Origin: a phage
Strand: one strand, 5' to 3'
Sequence record: PZ445533.1
DNA: 48,914 nt
Both the position numbers and the translations under genes were made by a program. The notes below the pieces were generated by a model. The model searched no databases. It saw only the letters and a program-made list of their open reading frames with translations, and had not been told where the DNA came from. Of this stretch, positions 20,680-42,987 are shown one piece after another (positions within the stretch are counted from its first letter, which is position 1; the number at the start of each line of letters is the position of its first letter).

Positions 20680-20745
20680 CTTAGTTGTTGTTGGATGCAA
20701 CTATACACGATCTTGGGCATCGCGTTTAGCAAAAAGTGCTATTTG
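20680..20745 (-). promoter_or_regulatory. Motif cassette upstream of cor-like operon
   Basis: Minus-strand reading AAATAGCACTTTTTGCTAAA, imperfect hairpin, TATAGT, CATCCAACAACAAC, RBS AAGGAG. Confidence 0.45.
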
Positions 20746-20749
20746 TTAT

Positions 20750-21110
20750 TTTTTGTTTTCCGGTGTTATCGAATTTAAGACGGCGTAAATTTAGCGCAAA
20801 ATTTAGACAACATAAGATCAATAAACAATCAATAAAATAGATATATACATATAAAATCAATAGTTTATTTATTTATGTATGTATATTTGTTTTTTCTTGT
20901 TATCTGCGTTTCTTGTGGTTTTGGTTGTTTGTGGTGATTTTTCTTTCTGAGTATCTGTATGTGCCATCATTCATGTGTATGTATATAATCCGGCGTATCT
21001 GAGAGAACAGGGGAACAAGAAAAATAACGCATATTAATCATTAACTTATGAGTCAAATCTGTTTTCTTGCCATCTGAGAACATTTAGAAAACAGAAAAAA
21101 CAAAACAGCT
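20750..21110. repeat. AT-rich divergent control region A with alternating purine-pyrimidine tracts and short iteron-like repeats
   Basis: ATCAATA x3, AAATTTAG x2, TGTATGTATAT tracts; homologous to 41200-41480. Confidence 0.5.
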
Positions 21111-21111
21111 A

Positions 21112-21139
21112 TTGACTAAATCAACCAAATGGCTACAAT
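21112..21139 (+). promoter_or_regulatory. Sigma70-like promoter (TTGACT-16-TACAAT) for recombination operon
   Basis: Read directly: TTGACT 21112-21117, 16-nt spacer, TACAAT 21134-21139, about 30 nt upstream of ATG 21170. Confidence 0.55.
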
Positions 21140-21169
21140 GCACGCATAAAGCAACAAGGAGCATTAAAG

Positions 21170-22225
21170 ATGAGTGATTTTAACGCCTACACTAGCGAAG
21201 AAATGAGCAACGAGCTTTATCATGATCCTAACGCGTGGACGGCTGAATATGTCAGCGGTTCCAGCCTGGCGGAGATTTACAGCACTTGCCCGGCGTACTG
21301 GAAGTACAAGCCGCGCCAGGAAACTAAAGCACTTGTTTTCGGTACGCAGTCGCATACCAACTTTGAAAGCAAGGAGCTATTCGAAAAAACATATCGCCGC
21401 GCACCGTCGCAGGATGATTTTAAAGATCTGATCACTAGCCAAACGGCGTTAGCATCAAAGCTGAAATCTTTTGGCCTGAAAGGTACAACGGGTAAACAAT
21501 ACCCTGAATTACTGGAAATGCTGTACAAGTGCGGCGAGGATCTCAATGTGTGGTGGCTTATCGAAATGATGGCAGAATGCCAGGCCGCAGCGGACGGAGT
21601 GCAGTTAATAGACGCTAAAGATTATGATGCCTGTGTAGCGATGCGGCGCGTACTTGAGGCCATACCGGAGCATAACGCTTGCATGAACAGCCCAACCGCG
21701 CAGCGTGAAATGTCAATATTTGGGATCATCAACGGCGTAAAAGTAAAAGTGCGTCTTGATCACGTTGACGTAAACAAGGATGTAAAGGCAACAATCATTA
21801 ACGGTTACGACGAAAAAGGCAGGCCGATTTATGAAGAAGTCACCTATCCAGAAGCGGTGATTATCACTGACTACAAAACAACGGTTAGCGCAAATCCGGT
21901 TGACTTCCAGCGCCTGGCTTACAATCACGGCTATTATCTTAAAATGGCTTTGCAACATGACTTATTCAAAAAGGCGTATCCAGACGAGGAAAGGCCAGTA
22001 ATTGTAAGATTGCTTGCGCAGGAGAAGAAAGAGCCTTACTTGCCGCTTGCTTTCCGCATGAATATTGAGCAATTGAAGATCGGGCGAATCCAGTACATGA
22101 GCGTGATCAACAAGTTCAACGTTTGCCAGCAGTTAGACGAATGGCCTTCGTATGCAAACGGGCAACCGGAAATTGATCTTGATACTCCTGATTGGGTACG
22201 CGCTCAATTCAGGCAGTATCTATAA
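21170..22225 (+). CDS. PD-(D/E)XK family exonuclease (RecE/RecB-like recombination nuclease)
   Basis: 351 aa; hhhDYKT motif (VIITDYKTT) with upstream acidic residues; first gene after sigma70-like promoter, followed by Erf and SSB. Confidence 0.55.
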   Translation: MSDFNAYTSEEMSNELYHDPNAWTAEYVSGSSLAEIYSTCPAYWKYKPRQETKALVFGTQSHTNFESKELFEKTYRRAPSQDDFKDLITSQTALASKLKSFGLKGTTGKQYPELLEMLYKCGEDLNVWWLIEMMAECQAAADGVQLIDAKDYDACVAMRRVLEAIPEHNACMNSPTAQREMSIFGIINGVKVKVRLDHVDVNKDVKATIINGYDEKGRPIYEEVTYPEAVIITDYKTTVSANPVDFQRLAYNHGYYLKMALQHDLFKKAYPDEERPVIVRLLAQEKKEPYLPLAFRMNIEQLKIGRIQYMSVINKFNVCQQLDEWPSYANGQPEIDLDTPDWVRAQFRQYL

Positions 22226-24232: not shown

Positions 24233-24511
24233 TTAAGCCCATCCTCTAATAGACTGATCTAACTCAACCACGTATCCATTAAAAATTACGGCATCAAACT
24301 TATCATCAATGATTCGCACATTAACGAAATAGCCGTCGTTCTTTCGCGCAATCTCCTCGCCATCGTCAGATCGTGCAATTACTGTATAAGTATTGCCGAT
24401 TACATCGAGCAGGATTGCATCCTGAATGGATTCGTTATCATCCCAATTAATTTTTCCTAAAAAGGCCGAAAACTCGGCCTTGTCTGAAAATTTTAATGTT
24501 AAATCACGCAT
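24233..24511 (-). CDS. Hypothetical protein between fibre genes
   Basis: 92 aa; TAATG overlap with upstream fibre gene. Confidence 0.45.
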   Translation of the reverse strand: MRDLTLKFSDKAEFSAFLGKINWDDNESIQDAILLDVIGNTYTVIARSDDGEEIARKNDGYFVNVRIIDDKFDAVIFNGYVVELDQSIRGWA

Positions 24512-26487
24512 TAAACAATTTCCCCCAATTGATGATCTGTTAGTGCCTTGTGCCATATACGGAAGTTTCTAACGTGCCCGAAAAGATGACGTTCTCCCGT
24601 AGTTGTTTGTCCGCCAATCCTTATAGTAGCCGTTGATACTATATATCTCCATTCCGTTTTTGTTTCGCTTGATATTCTGGCATTACTTACACAGCAATTA
24701 TTGTAATCACTCTTTACTCTCATTCCCACGATCATCTTTTTTAGTTTTGCATTCTCGTAAACCCTTCTGTTTGATCCACCTATATCGCAATAAGGGAATC
24801 CGTCATTATCGCCTTCGGCAGACCCGAAAGCAAGAATAATTGCCGCTCCGGTTTGATGGCCGCCTGTATCAAAAACACGTGGCGCTGCGTTTGGCGTTAT
24901 ACTCCAGTTTTTATGAGCTTCCACAAGCAATGTAAACGGCAAATTGTAAAGGTTGTTTTTTATTGGCAATGCAACCATATCGCTTGCCCGTGTTACTGGA
25001 GTATCTTCTGTAATAATAAAGGATGAAGCGCACGCCCCACCTTCAACTTGAGGTGTCGCAATATAAATATAATCATCCGCACCAGTGCCAACTCCTTTTG
25101 CTGGGGCATACTGAACCATTCCACCTATCATATTTTCTGTATCAAGTGCCTTAATTGTCGCCTCAAAAAAGATCCATTTGCTTGCTTCATCTTTAACAGC
25201 CCTTGCAGTAATACGATTTGCAGCGCCGCCAGTTTTTTCAATTGATAAATCTGTCAGATTTACGTAAGCATCACCCAAAAATGCATAAGCAGATCCATCG
25301 TAGTTTTCAAATCGTAATCGGCATCTTAAATTTGGAGTCCCACTTTGCGCCCTGCATGATATGGTTACATACTTTTCATTTCCTGTTACATCAAAACCTC
25401 TACTGCCGGAAACGGTTACTATGTTAATCGATGAAGTTTGCCCTACCATTTCTGGTTTTAATGTAAATTTTGCGTACTGGAATCCGAAATTATCCACACC
25501 TGATCTATCTAAGATCATATTTGATGACTTGTTCCATTTTGAAGGATTGACGCTATTTATAAGAAGGTTTGTTCTTTGCCCCTCAATTAGCAGACCATCC
25601 TTTTCAAATCTAGGTTCATCAATAGCAGCATTAGTAAGCACCCCAGACTTATTAATGTAAGTAGCGGCTGATGCTCGTTTAAACTTAACTATCTTGTCAC
25701 CTGGCATCGTGATCTCATCGTCACCTATAACAATCTTTTTGTATGACGGCGAGAATCCGGTAATCATATCCAGGGAGTCATTAAATGGTATCCACACGTC
25801 CGGCAACGGTTGCAATAAGTCCTTGTAAGGTTCTGCCGCCTGCTTTGCGTATTCCTCCGCCTGATCTCGCGCACTTTCAGCTCCTGCCTTTGCAGTGTTC
25901 GCAGCGTCACGCGCGGATTCAGCGCCAGACTTTGCTGCTTCAGCGCCAGTCTTTGCAGTGTTTGCAGCGTCGCGCGCGGATTCAGCGGCAGCCTTTGCAG
26001 TATCAGCACCTTTCTTGCTATTCGCTGCATTTGTTGCGCTTGTCTTCGCGTTATTCTCGCTGGTTTTAGCTGCCTGCTGGCTTGCTGCTGCTGCGTCAGC
26101 ATTTGTCTTTACGTCTTCCTGGATCTTCTGTAGCTTATCCCAATCAAAATCCTTGATGATCTCAATAAATCCAGCAAACTCCGATTCCTTCCCCTGGTAA
26201 TAACGCAGCGTTTCCGCTACGTCTTGCGCAAGACCGTCAACCGTTAACGAGTCATGAAGCAAGATCAGGTAATTTGTCTTCTGGACTACCGCGCCGCCAG
26301 TAGTAATTGCGCGAATGCTTGTATCGCTAATCACTTCTGTAATCACAGCAGCTTGCAAAGGTTGAGCAAGAAAGAAAATAGTTGCGCCTGGGCGAATCAA
26401 TGTTAATTGCTCACGCCATTTTGTACCGTAACCAGTTACATAACCTTGCGCGTCCATAGACGCTTGGCCTTGTCTGTAAATCGCCAT
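24511..26487 (-). CDS. Tail fibre / receptor-binding protein
   Basis: 658 aa from ATG 26487 (AGGAGG RBS); Ala/Lys-rich repeated coiled region (AESARDAANTAK x3), C-terminal lectin/LamG-like region. Confidence 0.65.
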   Translation of the reverse strand: MAIYRQGQASMDAQGYVTGYGTKWREQLTLIRPGATIFFLAQPLQAAVITEVISDTSIRAITTGGAVVQKTNYLILLHDSLTVDGLAQDVAETLRYYQGKESEFAGFIEIIKDFDWDKLQKIQEDVKTNADAAAASQQAAKTSENNAKTSATNAANSKKGADTAKAAAESARDAANTAKTGAEAAKSGAESARDAANTAKAGAESARDQAEEYAKQAAEPYKDLLQPLPDVWIPFNDSLDMITGFSPSYKKIVIGDDEITMPGDKIVKFKRASAATYINKSGVLTNAAIDEPRFEKDGLLIEGQRTNLLINSVNPSKWNKSSNMILDRSGVDNFGFQYAKFTLKPEMVGQTSSINIVTVSGSRGFDVTGNEKYVTISCRAQSGTPNLRCRLRFENYDGSAYAFLGDAYVNLTDLSIEKTGGAANRITARAVKDEASKWIFFEATIKALDTENMIGGMVQYAPAKGVGTGADDYIYIATPQVEGGACASSFIITEDTPVTRASDMVALPIKNNLYNLPFTLLVEAHKNWSITPNAAPRVFDTGGHQTGAAIILAFGSAEGDNDGFPYCDIGGSNRRVYENAKLKKMIVGMRVKSDYNNCCVSNARISSETKTEWRYIVSTATIRIGGQTTTGERHLFGHVRNFRIWHKALTDHQLGEIV

Positions 26488-26502
26488 TTGTAAAATCCTC
26501 CT

Positions 26503-26522
26503 AAATAGCACTTTTTGCTAAT
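26503..26522 (+). repeat. Isolated copy of 21-bp box upstream of tail fibre gene (opposite orientation)
   Basis: AAATAGCACTTTTTGCTAAT located 10 nt beyond fibre gene RBS. Confidence 0.5.
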
Positions 26523-26593: not shown

Positions 26594-27523
26594 TTATAGC
26601 AGTGATTCGGGCTTGTAGAGTTTTCTTTCTACTCCCTGTTTAAAATTATCGTTAACAGGCATCATTATGTCAAGCCCTCTTTCCTCTGCCGCGATTATCA
26701 CATCACGATCATCTTTCCGGCAGACTACGCGCATTCTTCTTTCTCCTTTATATCTATGCGCAACCATTTCAAGATTTGAAGGAGTAAAACAGGCCCACAC
26801 CTCTTGACCAGTTGATAAATGAACATGCTGAGAATCAACCCAATCAAGGCACAAATAGATCGTCTTATCTGTACTACCTGTTTTAACAACAGATCCTCGC
26901 GTGTAGTCGCGAGCTAAAAACCAATCCTTTCCATCCTCATCAATGAAAAGCACGTTACACATTTCATCATCCAGCCCGTCATCATGCACCAGGTGACAAG
27001 GTAGCGCGTGAATGTATCGACCATCCTTGACGCCGCAATCATAATGACAATCTTCCGGCGGATATATCCCCTCATAAACGCTTAAAGGTGTGCGATCGAA
27101 TTTTAATGTTTTTGCCATCACTTTTTCGCAACATTCATGACTTGCCTGTTTCCCGAACGAGTAACCAGAAGAACGCGAAGCGCGTTTGTTTGCTCTGATC
27201 CTGTAATCTTGTGGCACTTTTCCGAGGAAGCGGCCCAAAATGTTGATGGCCTCGCTGTAAGGTTCGCCAGTTAATTTCATTAACCAACCGATCCCCGTGT
27301 CGTTGCCGCACACGTTGCAGATCGCGCCGCCGTCGCCCTCTTCATTTAGCTTATCAGTCCATCTAAAACGATCCTTACCGCCGCAGTGTGGGCAAGGTTG
27401 ATGCTTTTTGTTGAAAACATCGCTATGCAGTCCGCAAATGCTTTGTAGTGCTTCACGCCATAACCCCTTCATATATGGCAAAACATCTTCTTTCTGATAG
27501 GTCATAAAGTTTTCAGTATTCAT
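26594..27523 (-). CDS. DNA primase (zinc-binding domain)
   Basis: CPHCGG...CNVCG zinc-finger motif; start ATG 27523 chosen because it follows a terminator hairpin and GAGG RBS. Confidence 0.6.
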   Translation of the reverse strand: MNTENFMTYQKEDVLPYMKGLWREALQSICGLHSDVFNKKHQPCPHCGGKDRFRWTDKLNEEGDGGAICNVCGNDTGIGWLMKLTGEPYSEAINILGRFLGKVPQDYRIRANKRASRSSGYSFGKQASHECCEKVMAKTLKFDRTPLSVYEGIYPPEDCHYDCGVKDGRYIHALPCHLVHDDGLDDEMCNVLFIDEDGKDWFLARDYTRGSVVKTGSTDKTIYLCLDWVDSQHVHLSTGQEVWACFTPSNLEMVAHRYKGERRMRVVCRKDDRDVIIAAEERGLDIMMPVNDNFKQGVERKLYKPESLL

Positions 27524-27530
27524 GGCAAAC

Positions 27531-27570
27531 CTCAATAAAAAAGCCCAGCAAATATTATCATTTCGCTGGG
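27531..27570 (-). terminator. Hairpin + T-run between HTH gene and primase start
   Basis: Minus-strand GCCCAGCGAAATGATAATATTTGCTGGGC followed by TTTTTTATT, then RBS GAGG and ATG 27523. Confidence 0.5.
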
Positions 27571-27578
27571 CCTTATCA

Positions 27579-28055
27579 TTAGCTATTCGTGCTGTTATCA
27601 CCTTTGTAGAATCTTCCGCCTGGTTCGTAGTCTGAATTTTTGACTACGCGCAACATTTCGTATTTGTCGCAACGGGTAGTAAGAGGCTTGCCGTTAGAAT
27701 CAAACCGCAGATCTGGACGACAAAATGATGCGCGGTATCCTTTGCATCCATTATATTTGTAGTCGTTATGCACCTTTTGTGCTCCAGCGGCTGAAATCAT
27801 ACCACGCTTTCGCCATTGGTTAACGACTTGCTGAGATACGCGCAGACGTCGAGCCATAGCAGGAACACCGCCATAATACTCGATCAGAATATCCAGGCGA
27901 GATTTCAGGCTTGCTTTTACCTCATCTCGCAGGATAAGGAATCCGGTTCGGTGTTTTCGTGGCTTTTTGTCTTTACCTCGTCGCGTTCCGTTGTTACCGT
28001 TAATAGTGCGCTTGTCGATCTCACCCGTAGATACTGCAATTCGTGCATCTTTCAT
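27579..28055 (-). CDS. Cro/YdaS-like HTH DNA-binding protein with C-terminal Cys cluster
   Basis: GGVPAMARRLRVSQQVVNQWRKRG HTH signature; basic N-terminus; GAGGTGA RBS. Confidence 0.55.
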   Translation of the reverse strand: MKDARIAVSTGEIDKRTINGNNGTRRGKDKKPRKHRTGFLILRDEVKASLKSRLDILIEYYGGVPAMARRLRVSQQVVNQWRKRGMISAAGAQKVHNDYKYNGCKGYRASFCRPDLRFDSNGKPLTTRCDKYEMLRVVKNSDYEPGGRFYKGDNSTNS

Positions 28056-40874: not shown

Positions 40875-40946
40875 CTCCTGAGCGGTTCGTTTCGATGTGT
40901 GTAATGTACCCGATCAGGCGGCCTGATTTTTAACAAAAAGTGCTAT
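40875..40946 (-). promoter_or_regulatory. Motif cassette at head of leftward small-gene operon
   Basis: Minus-strand motif, hairpin ATCAGGCCGCCTGAT, TACATT, CATCGAAACGAACC, RBS AGGAG. Confidence 0.5.
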
Positions 40947-40949
40947 TTG

Positions 40950-41485
40950 ACGGTTAGCACCAGGATTGTGATCGAAATAATCAAAAGTAATCATTCGTAA
41001 TCAAATCACGTCAAAATGATGATTGCCTTTGCAAATTTGATGAGAAAAGTAATCACGTTTAATCATTGGTTGCAGGGGAGATAGTGAAACCCTCCACTCT
41101 TGCCTCACTTTTCCGCCTGGCTGTCAGTGGTTGTTATGTTCCGTTCCCGCCTGTTCTTTTGTTGACCTTCCGCAAAATACGATAACAAAAAATAACAAAC
41201 AATACCTATATAATACATTGAAAAATAAGGATTATTTATTTATATGTATCTATATATTCTCTTTTGTTATCTTGGTTATTGTGGTATTTGGTGGGGGTAT
41301 ATAGTTTTTGTGTATCTGTATGTGTGTATGGGTATGTAGGGGCATATATATCTATATGGCACTTTCCGCGAGAAAACTTCGATAACAGGCAATGATAACA
41401 TTGATTTATAAGGAAAAATAACGCCCATATTGTTATTGTGCCACCATATAAAATTGATAAAACACGCGGGAACAAGAAAAAACAG
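40950..41485. repeat. AT-rich divergent control region B, homologous to region A, with (G)TAATCA iteron-like repeats
   Basis: Five TAATCA copies 40975-41075; shared blocks TTATTTATTTAT, GTATCTGTATGTG, GGGAACAAGAAAAA with region A. Confidence 0.5.
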
Positions 41486-41514
41486 TTGACACATTAAATA
41501 GCATTATTGATAAT
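41486..41514 (+). promoter_or_regulatory. Sigma70-like promoter (TTGACA-17-GATAAT) for rightward operon
   Basis: TTGACA 41486-41491, 17-nt spacer, GATAAT 41509-41514, RBS AGGAGG and ATG 41544 downstream. Confidence 0.6.
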
Positions 41515-41543
41515 GCCGACACCTAACAACCAGGAGGTAGAAA

Positions 41544-42008
41544 ATGAGCGAGCAATCATTCACTGACACGCTGCGCCGTGCAGCTATTATGCTGGCTAAT
41601 GGCGAGGAAGAGACGATCAAGATTCCTGACGCGTATTTGCAGGTCCACATGTTCGGCAAGAAGTCGGCAAGCAATCCGGCGGCCTACATTCGCCAGATCA
41701 TGAGTCGAGTGCCAGAAGTCGCCGAGCGGGGGCGCGTATCCGTTACCCGTGGCGTTTACGGGCCGGAAGATGAAAACTTCGGTAGCACTTTCTACGAGGT
41801 GCGGATTGTTGAAGGCCGTCGCAAGGTTTACAACAAAGAGGCACTGGAAAGGGCAGTGCGCCAGGCTAAGCGCAAGGTTGCAGAGGCGATCATTGATATG
41901 TCACCAAACCTGGCAAACTATGCGCCGGAAGAGTACGAAACATTATCAAAGGCCGTCGCTGACTTTCACGCGATGATCAAAAAAACTTTCCTGGAGGATG
42001 AGCAATGA
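41544..42008 (+). CDS. Hypothetical protein, first gene of rightward operon
   Basis: 154 aa; AGGAGG RBS; canonical sigma70-like promoter about 30 bp upstream. Confidence 0.6.
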   Translation: MSEQSFTDTLRRAAIMLANGEEETIKIPDAYLQVHMFGKKSASNPAAYIRQIMSRVPEVAERGRVSVTRGVYGPEDENFGSTFYEVRIVEGRRKVYNKEALERAVRQAKRKVAEAIIDMSPNLANYAPEEYETLSKAVADFHAMIKKTFLEDEQ

Positions 42009-42277
42009 AAAAGGCATTAATCAGCGTTTTGGCGGCAATGGCATTCCTGACCGGATGCAAAGAAGATGGCGCGCATGTTGGCAATGTGCAGATGGCTAAC
42101 CCTGGTGATGACTACAGCGTAAGGGAGCTATTCACCGCTGACGGTTGCACCGTTTACCGATTCTATGACGATCGCACTGTTTACTTCACCAACTGCAAGG
42201 GCACTACTAGCTGGGAAGTGTCGAAAAGCAATGGCAAAGGCACGAAGACAGAACATATGACCGTCGAGACAAAATAG
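42005..42277 (+). CDS. Lipoprotein (second superinfection-exclusion candidate)
   Basis: 90 aa; signal peptide and lipobox LTGC; ATGA overlap with upstream gene; stop TAG within motif. Confidence 0.55.
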   Translation: MKKALISVLAAMAFLTGCKEDGAHVGNVQMANPGDDYSVRELFTADGCTVYRFYDDRTVYFTNCKGTTSWEVSKSNGKGTKTEHMTVETK

Positions 42278-42335
42278 CACTTTTTGTTAAAACTCAAATG
42301 TGGGGCCAGGTATAATGGCCTCACTTTCAACGAGA
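42272..42335 (+). promoter_or_regulatory. Motif cassette
   Basis: Motif with TAG stop of lipoprotein gene; hairpin GGCC...GGCC with TATAAT in loop, 21 nt after TTGTTA. Confidence 0.5.
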
Positions 42336-42346
42336 GGGGAAACGCG

Positions 42347-42574
42347 ATGGAAAGTTTAATCATCCAGAAGAAAATGAAGTGCGTCAGTGTAGCGCCAGGT
42401 TGCGGCTTTATGTTCACGGTGGGAAATATCTACTCCGCGCAGAAGATGAGAACATCAACCGGATCGTTTTACGTCAATAATAATCAGGGATTCCGCATGT
42501 TCCTGAACGGTCAAAGTGGCAACGAAATTTGCGCTTACGCCGACCTTATCGCAACCTTTGAGGAAGTGAAATAA
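42347..42574 (+). CDS. Hypothetical protein
   Basis: 75 aa from ATG 42347 with GAGGGG RBS downstream of motif cassette. Confidence 0.45.
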   Translation: MESLIIQKKMKCVSVAPGCGFMFTVGNIYSAQKMRTSTGSFYVNNNQGFRMFLNGQSGNEICAYADLIATFEEVK

Positions 42575-42987
42575 TGGATGACTGCATGCCGTTTCCTGGA
42601 TATAGAAATAAAGATGGTTACGGTCAGGTTTGCATAAATGGTGTAGTTGTTGGTGCTCACGGGTTAGCATATTGCAGAGCTAACAACCTTTCACTTAATG
42701 ATATACGTGGAATGGTTGTAAGGCATAGGTGTGATAATCCGCCGTGCTGCAATCCTGATCATTTGGAGATAGGAACGCAAAGGGATAACGTTATTGATTG
42801 CATAAAGCGAGGAAGGTTTAAAAGTAATGCTGGTGTTAATAATCCAAGAGCAAAATTGAATTACGACACAGCAGAAGAGATTCGCAAAGAGTACGCTAGC
42901 GGCGTAGTGTCTATGGGGGCGCTAGCTGAGAAATACATGGTTGGTAAAAGCACAATAAAAAGAGTTATTGACCGGAGCATTTGGTGA
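42574..42987 (+). CDS. HNH homing endonuclease
   Basis: HRCDNPPCCNPDHLEIGTQRDN HNH motif with Cys pairs; free-standing between small genes. Confidence 0.75.
   Translation: MDDCMPFPGYRNKDGYGQVCINGVVVGAHGLAYCRANNLSLNDIRGMVVRHRCDNPPCCNPDHLEIGTQRDNVIDCIKRGRFKSNAGVNNPRAKLNYDTAEEIRKEYASGVVSMGALAEKYMVGKSTIKRVIDRSIW

What the first reader, a model, noticed from the sequence alone, without database searches (positions are those of the whole stretch)
41544..42008. First gene behind the canonical sigma70 promoter: 154-aa protein of unknown function
This ORF is immediately downstream of the canonical TTGACA-17-GATAAT promoter with a strong RBS, so it is probably among the first proteins made if that promoter is early. 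No motif recognised. Candidate host-takeover or transcription-modifying factor, possibly linked to the shift toward box-type promoters.
Basis: inference. Interest (0 to 1): 0.4.

Follow-up and report, generated by a model that had tools for sequence, protein, structure and literature searches.

The report
First early gene of T1-like phage
This is a real gene, conserved among many T1-like coliphages (catalogued family DUF7174), that sits first behind a host-type promoter; its function is still unknown, it looks weakly like a small nucleic-acid-binding protein, and it is exchanged between related phages as one block with its own control region.

The parts
41486..41514 (+). sigma70-type promoter TTGACA-17-GATAAT, preceded by an A-tract (AAGAAAAAACAG). 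Its spacer carries AAATAGCA, the first 8 nt of the 21-nt box.
41531..41537 (+). Shine-Dalgarno sequence AGGAGGT, 7 nt before the ATG
41544..42008 (+). DUF7174 gene, 154 aa. Residues 1-90 form a basic winged-helix-like domain; residues 98-153 form an acidic two-helix hairpin.
41141..41995 (.). Variable cassette replaced as one block between same-genus phages. It holds the box arrays, the promoter and nearly the whole ORF. The right edge recurs at 41992-41994. The left edge varies (40948, about 41140, or 41294).
41130..41200 (.). Left arrays of TGTT/AACA-type boxes at about 10-nt spacing (TGTTAT, CGTTCC, TGTTCT, TGTTGA; then GATAACA and AATAACA)
41206..41254 (.). AT-rich core (CTATATAATACATTGAAAAATAAGGATTATTTATTTATATGTATCTATA). 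It is conserved even where the flanking boxes diverge.
41380..41440 (.). Right array of ATAACA-type boxes (41382 +, 41395 +, 41418 +, 41431 -)
42005..42277 (+). Next gene, a 90-aa lipoprotein with a DUF4884 domain. Its start overlaps the stop of the DUF7174 gene (ATGA), so the two are probably co-transcribed and translationally coupled.
42272..42292 (+). First 21-nt box (AAATAGCACTTTTTGTTAAAA) downstream. It marks the end of the two-gene stretch that lies behind the sigma70 promoter alone.
40930..40950 (-). 21-nt box facing left, at the head of the leftward gene cluster in the same intergenic region

Best explanation
The gene encodes a non-structural, immediate-early protein of family DUF7174. 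Unmodified host sigma70 RNA polymerase transcribes it from the conserved near-consensus promoter as soon as the phage DNA enters, together with the lipoprotein gene that overlaps its stop codon. This step is inferred from promoter logic, not measured. The protein most likely binds nucleic acid through its basic N-terminal domain. The acidic C-terminal helical hairpin probably serves for pairing with itself or with a partner. Its most likely site of action is the phage's own complex control region just upstream: phased AACA-type boxes around a conserved AT-rich core, next to its promoter. There it would tune early transcription or help organise that region. Shown here: the gene, the promoter and their conservation, family membership, purifying selection, and inheritance of gene plus control region as one cassette. 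Inferred: early timing, nucleic-acid binding, and the target.
Confidence: 0.3

Rival explanations
1. Anti-defence or host-takeover protein. It would be an early protein that binds and neutralises a host factor (a restriction or other defence system, RecBCD, a nucleoid protein, or RNA polymerase) rather than phage DNA.
For: It is the first gene behind a strong host-type promoter, the slot that Ocr holds in T7 (my own knowledge). Divergence is extreme, 23-60% identity between alleles and about 30% within one genus, with cassette-like replacement. The slot holds an unrelated protein in a Webervirus. The family occurs only on phage-sized contigs of about 50 kb, with no domain fusions. The C-terminal half is acidic.
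Against: The whole protein is near neutral (pI 6.2), not a DNA mimic. Accessory anti-defence genes usually come and go, whereas this one has fixed length, position and motifs across 235 records. I found no published anti-defence role. I did not scan the PADLOC library.
Confidence: 0.3
2. Replication initiator or origin organiser. The protein would bind the phased AACA-type boxes that flank the conserved AT-rich core and open or mark an origin, as lambda O or plasmid Rep proteins do at iterons.
Against: The protein has only one small domain, whereas RepE and Pi have two winged-helix domains, and there is no Rep_3 match. A second, similar region at 20.7-21.2 kb does not covary with the allele. 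The slot is not conserved in Webervirus. The skew minimum can be explained by the strand switch alone. TLS authors place the pac site in this same region.
Confidence: 0.12
3. Switch factor for the 21-nt box promoters. An early activator would bind AAATAGCAC...TTGTTAAAA and redirect host polymerase, as MotA does in T4.
For: Only two genes lie between the sigma70 promoter and the first box. The function of the box is an open question (PMC11447400). The promoter spacer itself carries AAATAGCA. A basic domain joined to an acidic helical domain would suit an activator.
Against: The box is identical in window, SLUR29 and T1, while the protein shares about 30% identity or less, and T1 replaces the nearly invariant R50. 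A Webervirus lacks a detectable homologue. A factor reading an invariant 21-nt site should be among the most conserved proteins.
Confidence: 0.1
4. RNA-binding early protein, acting for example as an antiterminator, a transcript stabiliser or a translation factor on the early mRNA.
Against: All these scores are below significance. No RNA-binding Pfam family recurs among the 31 members. No conserved RNA element was identified.
Confidence: 0.08

Closest known systems
Pfam DUF7174 / PHROG 4841 (includes TLS gene 01, AAR09231)
   Same: Full-length match well above the curated threshold. Same length (141-163 aa) and same position as the first rightward gene. Conserved motifs F-x-D-x-LR, SYIRxxMxRVPEV and PNxxDLxGE.
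   Different: Nothing differs; it is a member. The family has no assigned function, and I found no paper that mentions it.
T1 gene 1 product (CPTT1_001, Orf 77, 191 aa)
   Same: Same slot behind the same kind of intergenic region. It gives a collinear, full-length match to DUF7174, but below the threshold (E 2.3e-4, 21.3 bits).
   Different: It is below the gathering score of 27 bits and has about 35 extra N-terminal residues. The nearly invariant R50 is not kept in the hhalign alignment, which gave only 7% probability.
Winged-helix DNA-binding domains (Stn1 C-terminal domain, CtsR, RepE, Pi)
   Same: The predicted order of elements is helix, strand, helix, helix, then a long beta hairpin. The domain is basic, with conserved arginines in or near the third helix.
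T7 gene 0.3 (Ocr), first gene behind the strong early host-type promoters
   Same: Positional analogy: the first product made by host polymerase on entry, and highly variable between related phages. This rests on my own knowledge.
   Different: Ocr is a strongly acidic DNA mimic. This protein has pI 6.2 with a basic N-domain, and there is no sequence or fold similarity.
T4 MotA, activator of middle promoters through a box upstream of the -10 element
   Different: There is no similarity. Here the box is invariant while the protein is hypervariable, which is the opposite of what a box reader should show.
Lambdoid specificity modules (repressor with its operators; O protein with its ori iterons)
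   Same: A trans-acting gene and the adjacent repeated sites are exchanged as one cassette between otherwise near-identical phages.
   Different: Binding has not been shown. The unlinked paralogous region does not covary. The phage is virulent, with no repressor or O homology.

Membership tests
Pfam DUF7174 | HMM score above the curated gathering threshold over the full length | tested here: met
   99.2 bits against a cutoff of 27. Residues 1-150 match profile positions 2-150 of 153. All 31 aligned relatives match.
Pfam DUF7174 | Occurs in T1-like phages as a single-domain protein of about 150 aa | tested here: met
   235 phage records, nearly all Drexlerviridae. There are 33 representative clusters. 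The 30 profile hits are all 144-172 aa, carry only PF23796, and most lie on contigs of about 50 kb.
Winged-helix DNA-binding proteins | Helix-strand-helix-helix-strand-wing-strand topology | tested here: inconclusive
   The AF2 secondary-structure order is H3-19, E25-28, H29-36, H45-54, E63-71, E82-90 at pLDDT of about 90.
Winged-helix DNA-binding proteins | Significant structural or profile match to a known winged-helix family | tested here: not met
Iteron-binding replication initiators (RepE, Pi, Rep_3) | Two tandem winged-helix domains and a Rep_3-type sequence signature | tested here: not met
Iteron-binding replication initiators (RepE, Pi, Rep_3) | Repeated binding sites next to an AT-rich unwinding element adjacent to the gene | tested here: inconclusive
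   ATAACA occurs 7 times against 0.4 expected, around a conserved AT core. Binding is untested, and a similar region elsewhere does not covary.
DNA-mimic anti-restriction proteins (Ocr, ArdA type) | Strongly acidic protein overall | tested here: not met
   pI 6.19, with 23 K+R against 24 D+E. The N-domain has pI 8.1 here and about 9 in most relatives.
MotA-like activators of box promoters | A conserved protein matched to a conserved promoter box across the phage group | tested here: not met
   The box is identical in window, SLUR29 and T1. The protein is about 30% identical or barely detectable and absent from RCIP0025.
Virion structural proteins | Similarity to a known structural protein, or placement in the morphogenesis module | tested here: not met
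   No such hit in Pfam, PHROGs, PDB or BFVD. The gene lies among small early-type genes, about 7 kb upstream of terminase.
Early gene class | Transcript and protein appear in the first minutes of infection | not testable with these tools
   This is inferred only from the host-type promoter. No Drexlerviridae time-course paper was found.

The most novel reading that the evidence does not exclude
DUF7174 is the sequence-specific subunit of a so far unrecognised early-control or origin module of T1-like phages. It would bind the phased AACA-type boxes on both sides of the conserved AT-rich core. It is exchanged together with those boxes as a specificity cassette, much as lambdoid phages exchange O/ori or repressor/operator modules. 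This would give T1-like phages their first defined origin or early switch.
Probability: 0.15. Interest if true: 0.6.

Novelty: already known. Interest (0 to 1): 0.3.

Why it matters
T1-like phages are common laboratory and therapy-candidate phages, yet their early programme is largely unmapped. A 2024 reannotation of TLS lists host shut-off, host DNA degradation and the role of the 21-nt repeats as open questions. This gene is probably one of the first products made, so it is a sensible target for a knockout. The cassette structure suggests an allele-swap experiment: exchange the gene with or without its upstream control region. As it stands, the gene is a catalogued protein of unknown function, identical to deposited sequences, and nothing here shows an unusual mechanism.

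Tried and rejected
- **PDB sequence searches.** A single-sequence and a profile search gave only chance hits, E >= 0.15.
- **Fold searches.** Foldseek against PDB found nothing below E 1e-3. Foldseek against BFVD returned only uncharacterised relatives from T1-like and related phages. The AlphaFold database library was not available.
- **Weak Pfam hits.** Scanning all 31 family members at E <= 10 showed no recurring second family.
- **Other protein libraries.** NCBIfam gave nothing. I did not scan PADLOC.
- **Locus searches.** The profile-based locus search failed for lack of a conserved stretch. The single-protein scan of viral contigs returned only 2 near-identical loci.
- **Second profile search.** A search of the 5.8-billion-protein set for domain fusions or bacterial contexts found none.
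- **Literature.** Searches for DUF7174, the PHROG, VOG and Bas05 identifiers, and Drexlerviridae transcriptomes found nothing relevant. The SECphi27 defence-trigger papers found and checked concern other phage proteins, the capsid, a recombinase and the portal. The 2004 T1 genome paper is not held.
- **Essentiality.** I suspected that truncated copies in JK16 and 2019SD1 showed the gene to be dispensable. JK16 has a tandem duplication and keeps a full copy. 2019SD1 has -1 and -2 deletions in an otherwise conserved sequence, so it may be a sequencing error. Neither is informative.
- **Covariation.** I tested whether the boxes covary with the protein allele at an unlinked site. They do not.

Full report
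**What the window is.** The region 41300-42300 is 97-99% identical to Escherichia phages AV105, brachmannus, BEK12A and JLBYU10. JLBYU10, JK16 and PeterMerian are classified as Drexlerviridae, Tempevirinae, Warwickvirus. The 48.9-kb window starts with the large terminase gene and looks like a whole T1-like genome.

**The observation.**
- ORF 41544-42008 (+) encodes 154 aa, and 41544 is the first possible start after a stop.
- AGGAGGT ends 7 nt before the ATG.
- TTGACA-17-GATAAT lies at 41486-41514, 29 nt before the ATG.
- An 11/12 match is not rare by itself. The genome has three, against about one in Markov simulations.
- The promoter's position is conserved. A 9-12/12 promoter lies 28-37 nt before the start codon in about 10 of 12 diverged relatives. 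Spacer sequences differ, and an A-tract lies upstream of the -35 hexamer.
- Four close relatives differ from the window at 23 synonymous and 3 non-synonymous codons, so the ORF is under purifying selection.

**Family.**
- The protein matches Pfam DUF7174 (E 2.5e-28, full length) and PHROG 4841, both of unknown function.
- tblastn finds it in 235 phage records at 23-100% identity, nearly all of them T1-like phages of enterobacteria.
- An exhaustive search of 1.8 billion cluster representatives finds only 33 clusters, almost all about 150 aa.
- A profile search finds only single-domain proteins, most on contigs of about 50 kb.
- The protein is TLS gene 01.
- The first gene of T1 matches DUF7174 collinearly but below threshold (E 2.3e-4). 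hhalign support for that match is weak.
- A T1-type query adds 59 more records.
- About 700 records carry a large terminase at least 60% identical to the window's, so the family is widespread but not universal.
- In the Klebsiella phage RCIP0025 the same slot holds a 181-aa protein with no detectable similarity.

**Position.** In every annotated relative I examined, the gene is the first one on the rightward arm. It follows a divergent intergenic region that is usually about 0.65-0.7 kb long. Small genes, polynucleotide kinase and dNMP kinase follow it. Its stop overlaps the start of a DUF4884 lipoprotein gene (ATGA).

**Structure.**
- With a 31-sequence alignment, AlphaFold2 gives a mean pLDDT of 78.9.
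- Residues 1-90 score about 90 and run helix, strand, helix, helix, long beta hairpin, which is the order seen in winged-helix domains.
- Residues 98-153 form two long helices at pLDDT 55-69.
- The N-domain is basic (pI about 9 in most members) and the C-domain is acidic (about 5). The whole protein is near neutral.
- Invariant or nearly invariant residues are L10, R11, G20, Y48, R50, R55, G63 and P121.
- Foldseek finds nothing significant in PDB and only uncharacterised relatives in BFVD.
- PDB sequence searches and weak-hit Pfam scans add nothing.
- The fold therefore suggests a small nucleic-acid-binding domain, but it does not prove one.

**The cassette.**
- SLUR29 belongs to the same genus. 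Compared with it, the window is near-identical up to about 41140.
- It then diverges through the box arrays, the promoter and the whole ORF (30% protein identity).
- It becomes 98% identical again about 10 nt before the stop codon.
- Only an AT-rich core (41206-41254) stays conserved inside the diverged block.
- The right edge recurs at 41992-41994 against mar001J1, aalborv and Henu8. The left edge varies.
- Gene and control region are thus inherited as one unit.

**The boxes.**
- ATAACA occurs 7 times in 41120-41490 against 0.4 expected.
- The boxes sit in arrays at about 10-nt spacing on both sides of the AT core.
- Phages with the same allele in another genus (damhaus, 2019SD1) have 10-11 copies.
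- Other alleles lack that enrichment and have related boxes instead, for example GATTAAC in T1 and CTGTTA in SLUR29.
- Between window and damhaus, the boxes and the AT core are conserved islands.

**A negative test of the box link.** The genome holds a second, collinear control region at 20725-21172. It has a leftward 21-nt box, TGTTAT boxes, an AT core, a GT-rich stretch and TTGACT-16-TACAAT, all in front of the exonuclease VIII gene. This region is 98-99% identical in tunus, JLBYU01 and Tuinin, which carry the 30%-identical allele. The boxes at this unlinked site therefore do not follow the protein allele. Co-occurrence at the linked site may be shared descent only.

**The 21-nt box.**
- AAATAGCACTTTTTGTTAAAA occurs 13 times in the window. 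Most copies point the same way as the flanking genes, and most are followed by a hairpin.
- It is the TLS 'direct repeat', whose function is listed as an open question. The same paper finds only three sigma70-like intergenic promoters, finds no phage polymerase or sigma factor, and places the pac site in this intergenic region (PMC11447400).
- The box is the same in window, SLUR29 and T1, while the protein is hypervariable.

**Other points.** The ORF has the highest GC of any 465-nt window in the genome (53.1% against 44.8%; GC3 61%). A GC excess of 3-9 points over the local average holds in 14 other loci. This fits a highly expressed gene, but that is an inference. No paper mentions the family, and I found no Drexlerviridae transcriptome.

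**Verdict.** The function remains unknown.

| Explanation | Probability |
|---|---|
| Immediate-early nucleic-acid-binding regulator acting on its own control region | about 0.3 |
| Anti-defence or host-takeover protein | about 0.3 |
| Origin organiser | about 0.12 |
| Activator of the 21-nt box promoters | about 0.1 |
| RNA-binding early protein | about 0.08 |

This is a catalogued orphan family, so novelty is low and interest is modest.

Noticed in passing
window 6197, 9952, 20730, 26507, 30558, 31629, 37038, 37712, 39629, 40934, 42276, 43683, 45989: There are 13 copies of the 21-nt box AAATAGCACTTTTTGTTAAAA. By my reading of ORF strands, about 10 point the same way as the flanking genes. 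Most are followed by a GC-rich hairpin, and three have TATAGT or TATAAT in the loop (at 42272, 43679 and 39645 on the minus strand). This is the TLS 'direct repeat' of unknown function. TTGTTAAAA reads like an extended -10 element (TGnTAAAA) that lacks the final T.
   Followed up: partly
window 20725-21172: This is a second control region, collinear with the one upstream of the DUF7174 gene. It has a leftward 21-nt box, TGTTAT boxes, an AT core (TTTATTTATTTAT), a GT-rich stretch and TTGACT-16-TACAAT. It lies in front of the exonuclease VIII gene (21170-22225). Recombination genes may therefore be immediate-early too, or the genome may have two origin-like regions.
   Followed up: partly
window 40965-41070: Repeats of TAATCA / TGATTG type (for example GTAATCA three times) lie left of the variable block and are identical in SLUR29. 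TLS authors place the pac site in the equivalent stretch, so these may be packaging rather than replication signals.
   Followed up: no
L020 (Shigella phage JK16) 845-1430, equivalent to window 41142-41728: JK16 carries a tandem duplication of 587 bp covering the boxes, the AT core, the promoter and the first 61 codons. This produces a truncated 68-aa copy ahead of the full gene. The left edge coincides with the left edge of the cassette. It could be real or an assembly artefact.
   Followed up: partly
L008 (Shigella phage 2019SD1) 2501-3013: The DUF7174 gene carries a -1 and a -2 deletion relative to damhaus in an otherwise conserved sequence, and it is annotated as two short ORFs. This is either a sequencing error or a very recent pseudogene.
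   Followed up: partly
window 41498-41505: The spacer of the sigma70 promoter carries AAATAGCA, the first 8 nt of the 21-nt box. SLUR29 has AAATAGC at the same place, while damhaus and TLS do not.
   Followed up: no
window 41544-42008 and 14 related loci: The first-gene ORF is consistently 3-9 GC points richer than its surroundings, with GC3 up to 71%. In the window it is the richest 465-nt stretch of the genome. The same holds for the unrelated first gene of RCIP0025.
   Followed up: partly
window 42574-42987: This is an HNH homing-endonuclease gene (HNH_3, PHROG 6254) just before the polynucleotide kinase gene. JLBYU10 has small unrelated ORFs at this place, so it is probably a mobile insertion.
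   Followed up: no
window 26645-26673 (minus strand): A second TTGACA-17-GATAAT (11/12) lies on the minus strand, inside the 3' end of ORF 26594-27601 and upstream of the 666-aa gene 24511-26511. A plus-oriented 21-nt box sits at 26507 between these minus-strand genes.
   Followed up: no
L021 (Klebsiella phage RCIP0025) 1432-1977: In this Webervirus-type relative the first rightward gene is an unrelated 181-aa protein behind TTGACG-17-TAAGAT. The slot and the promoter are conserved, but the protein family is not.
   Followed up: partly
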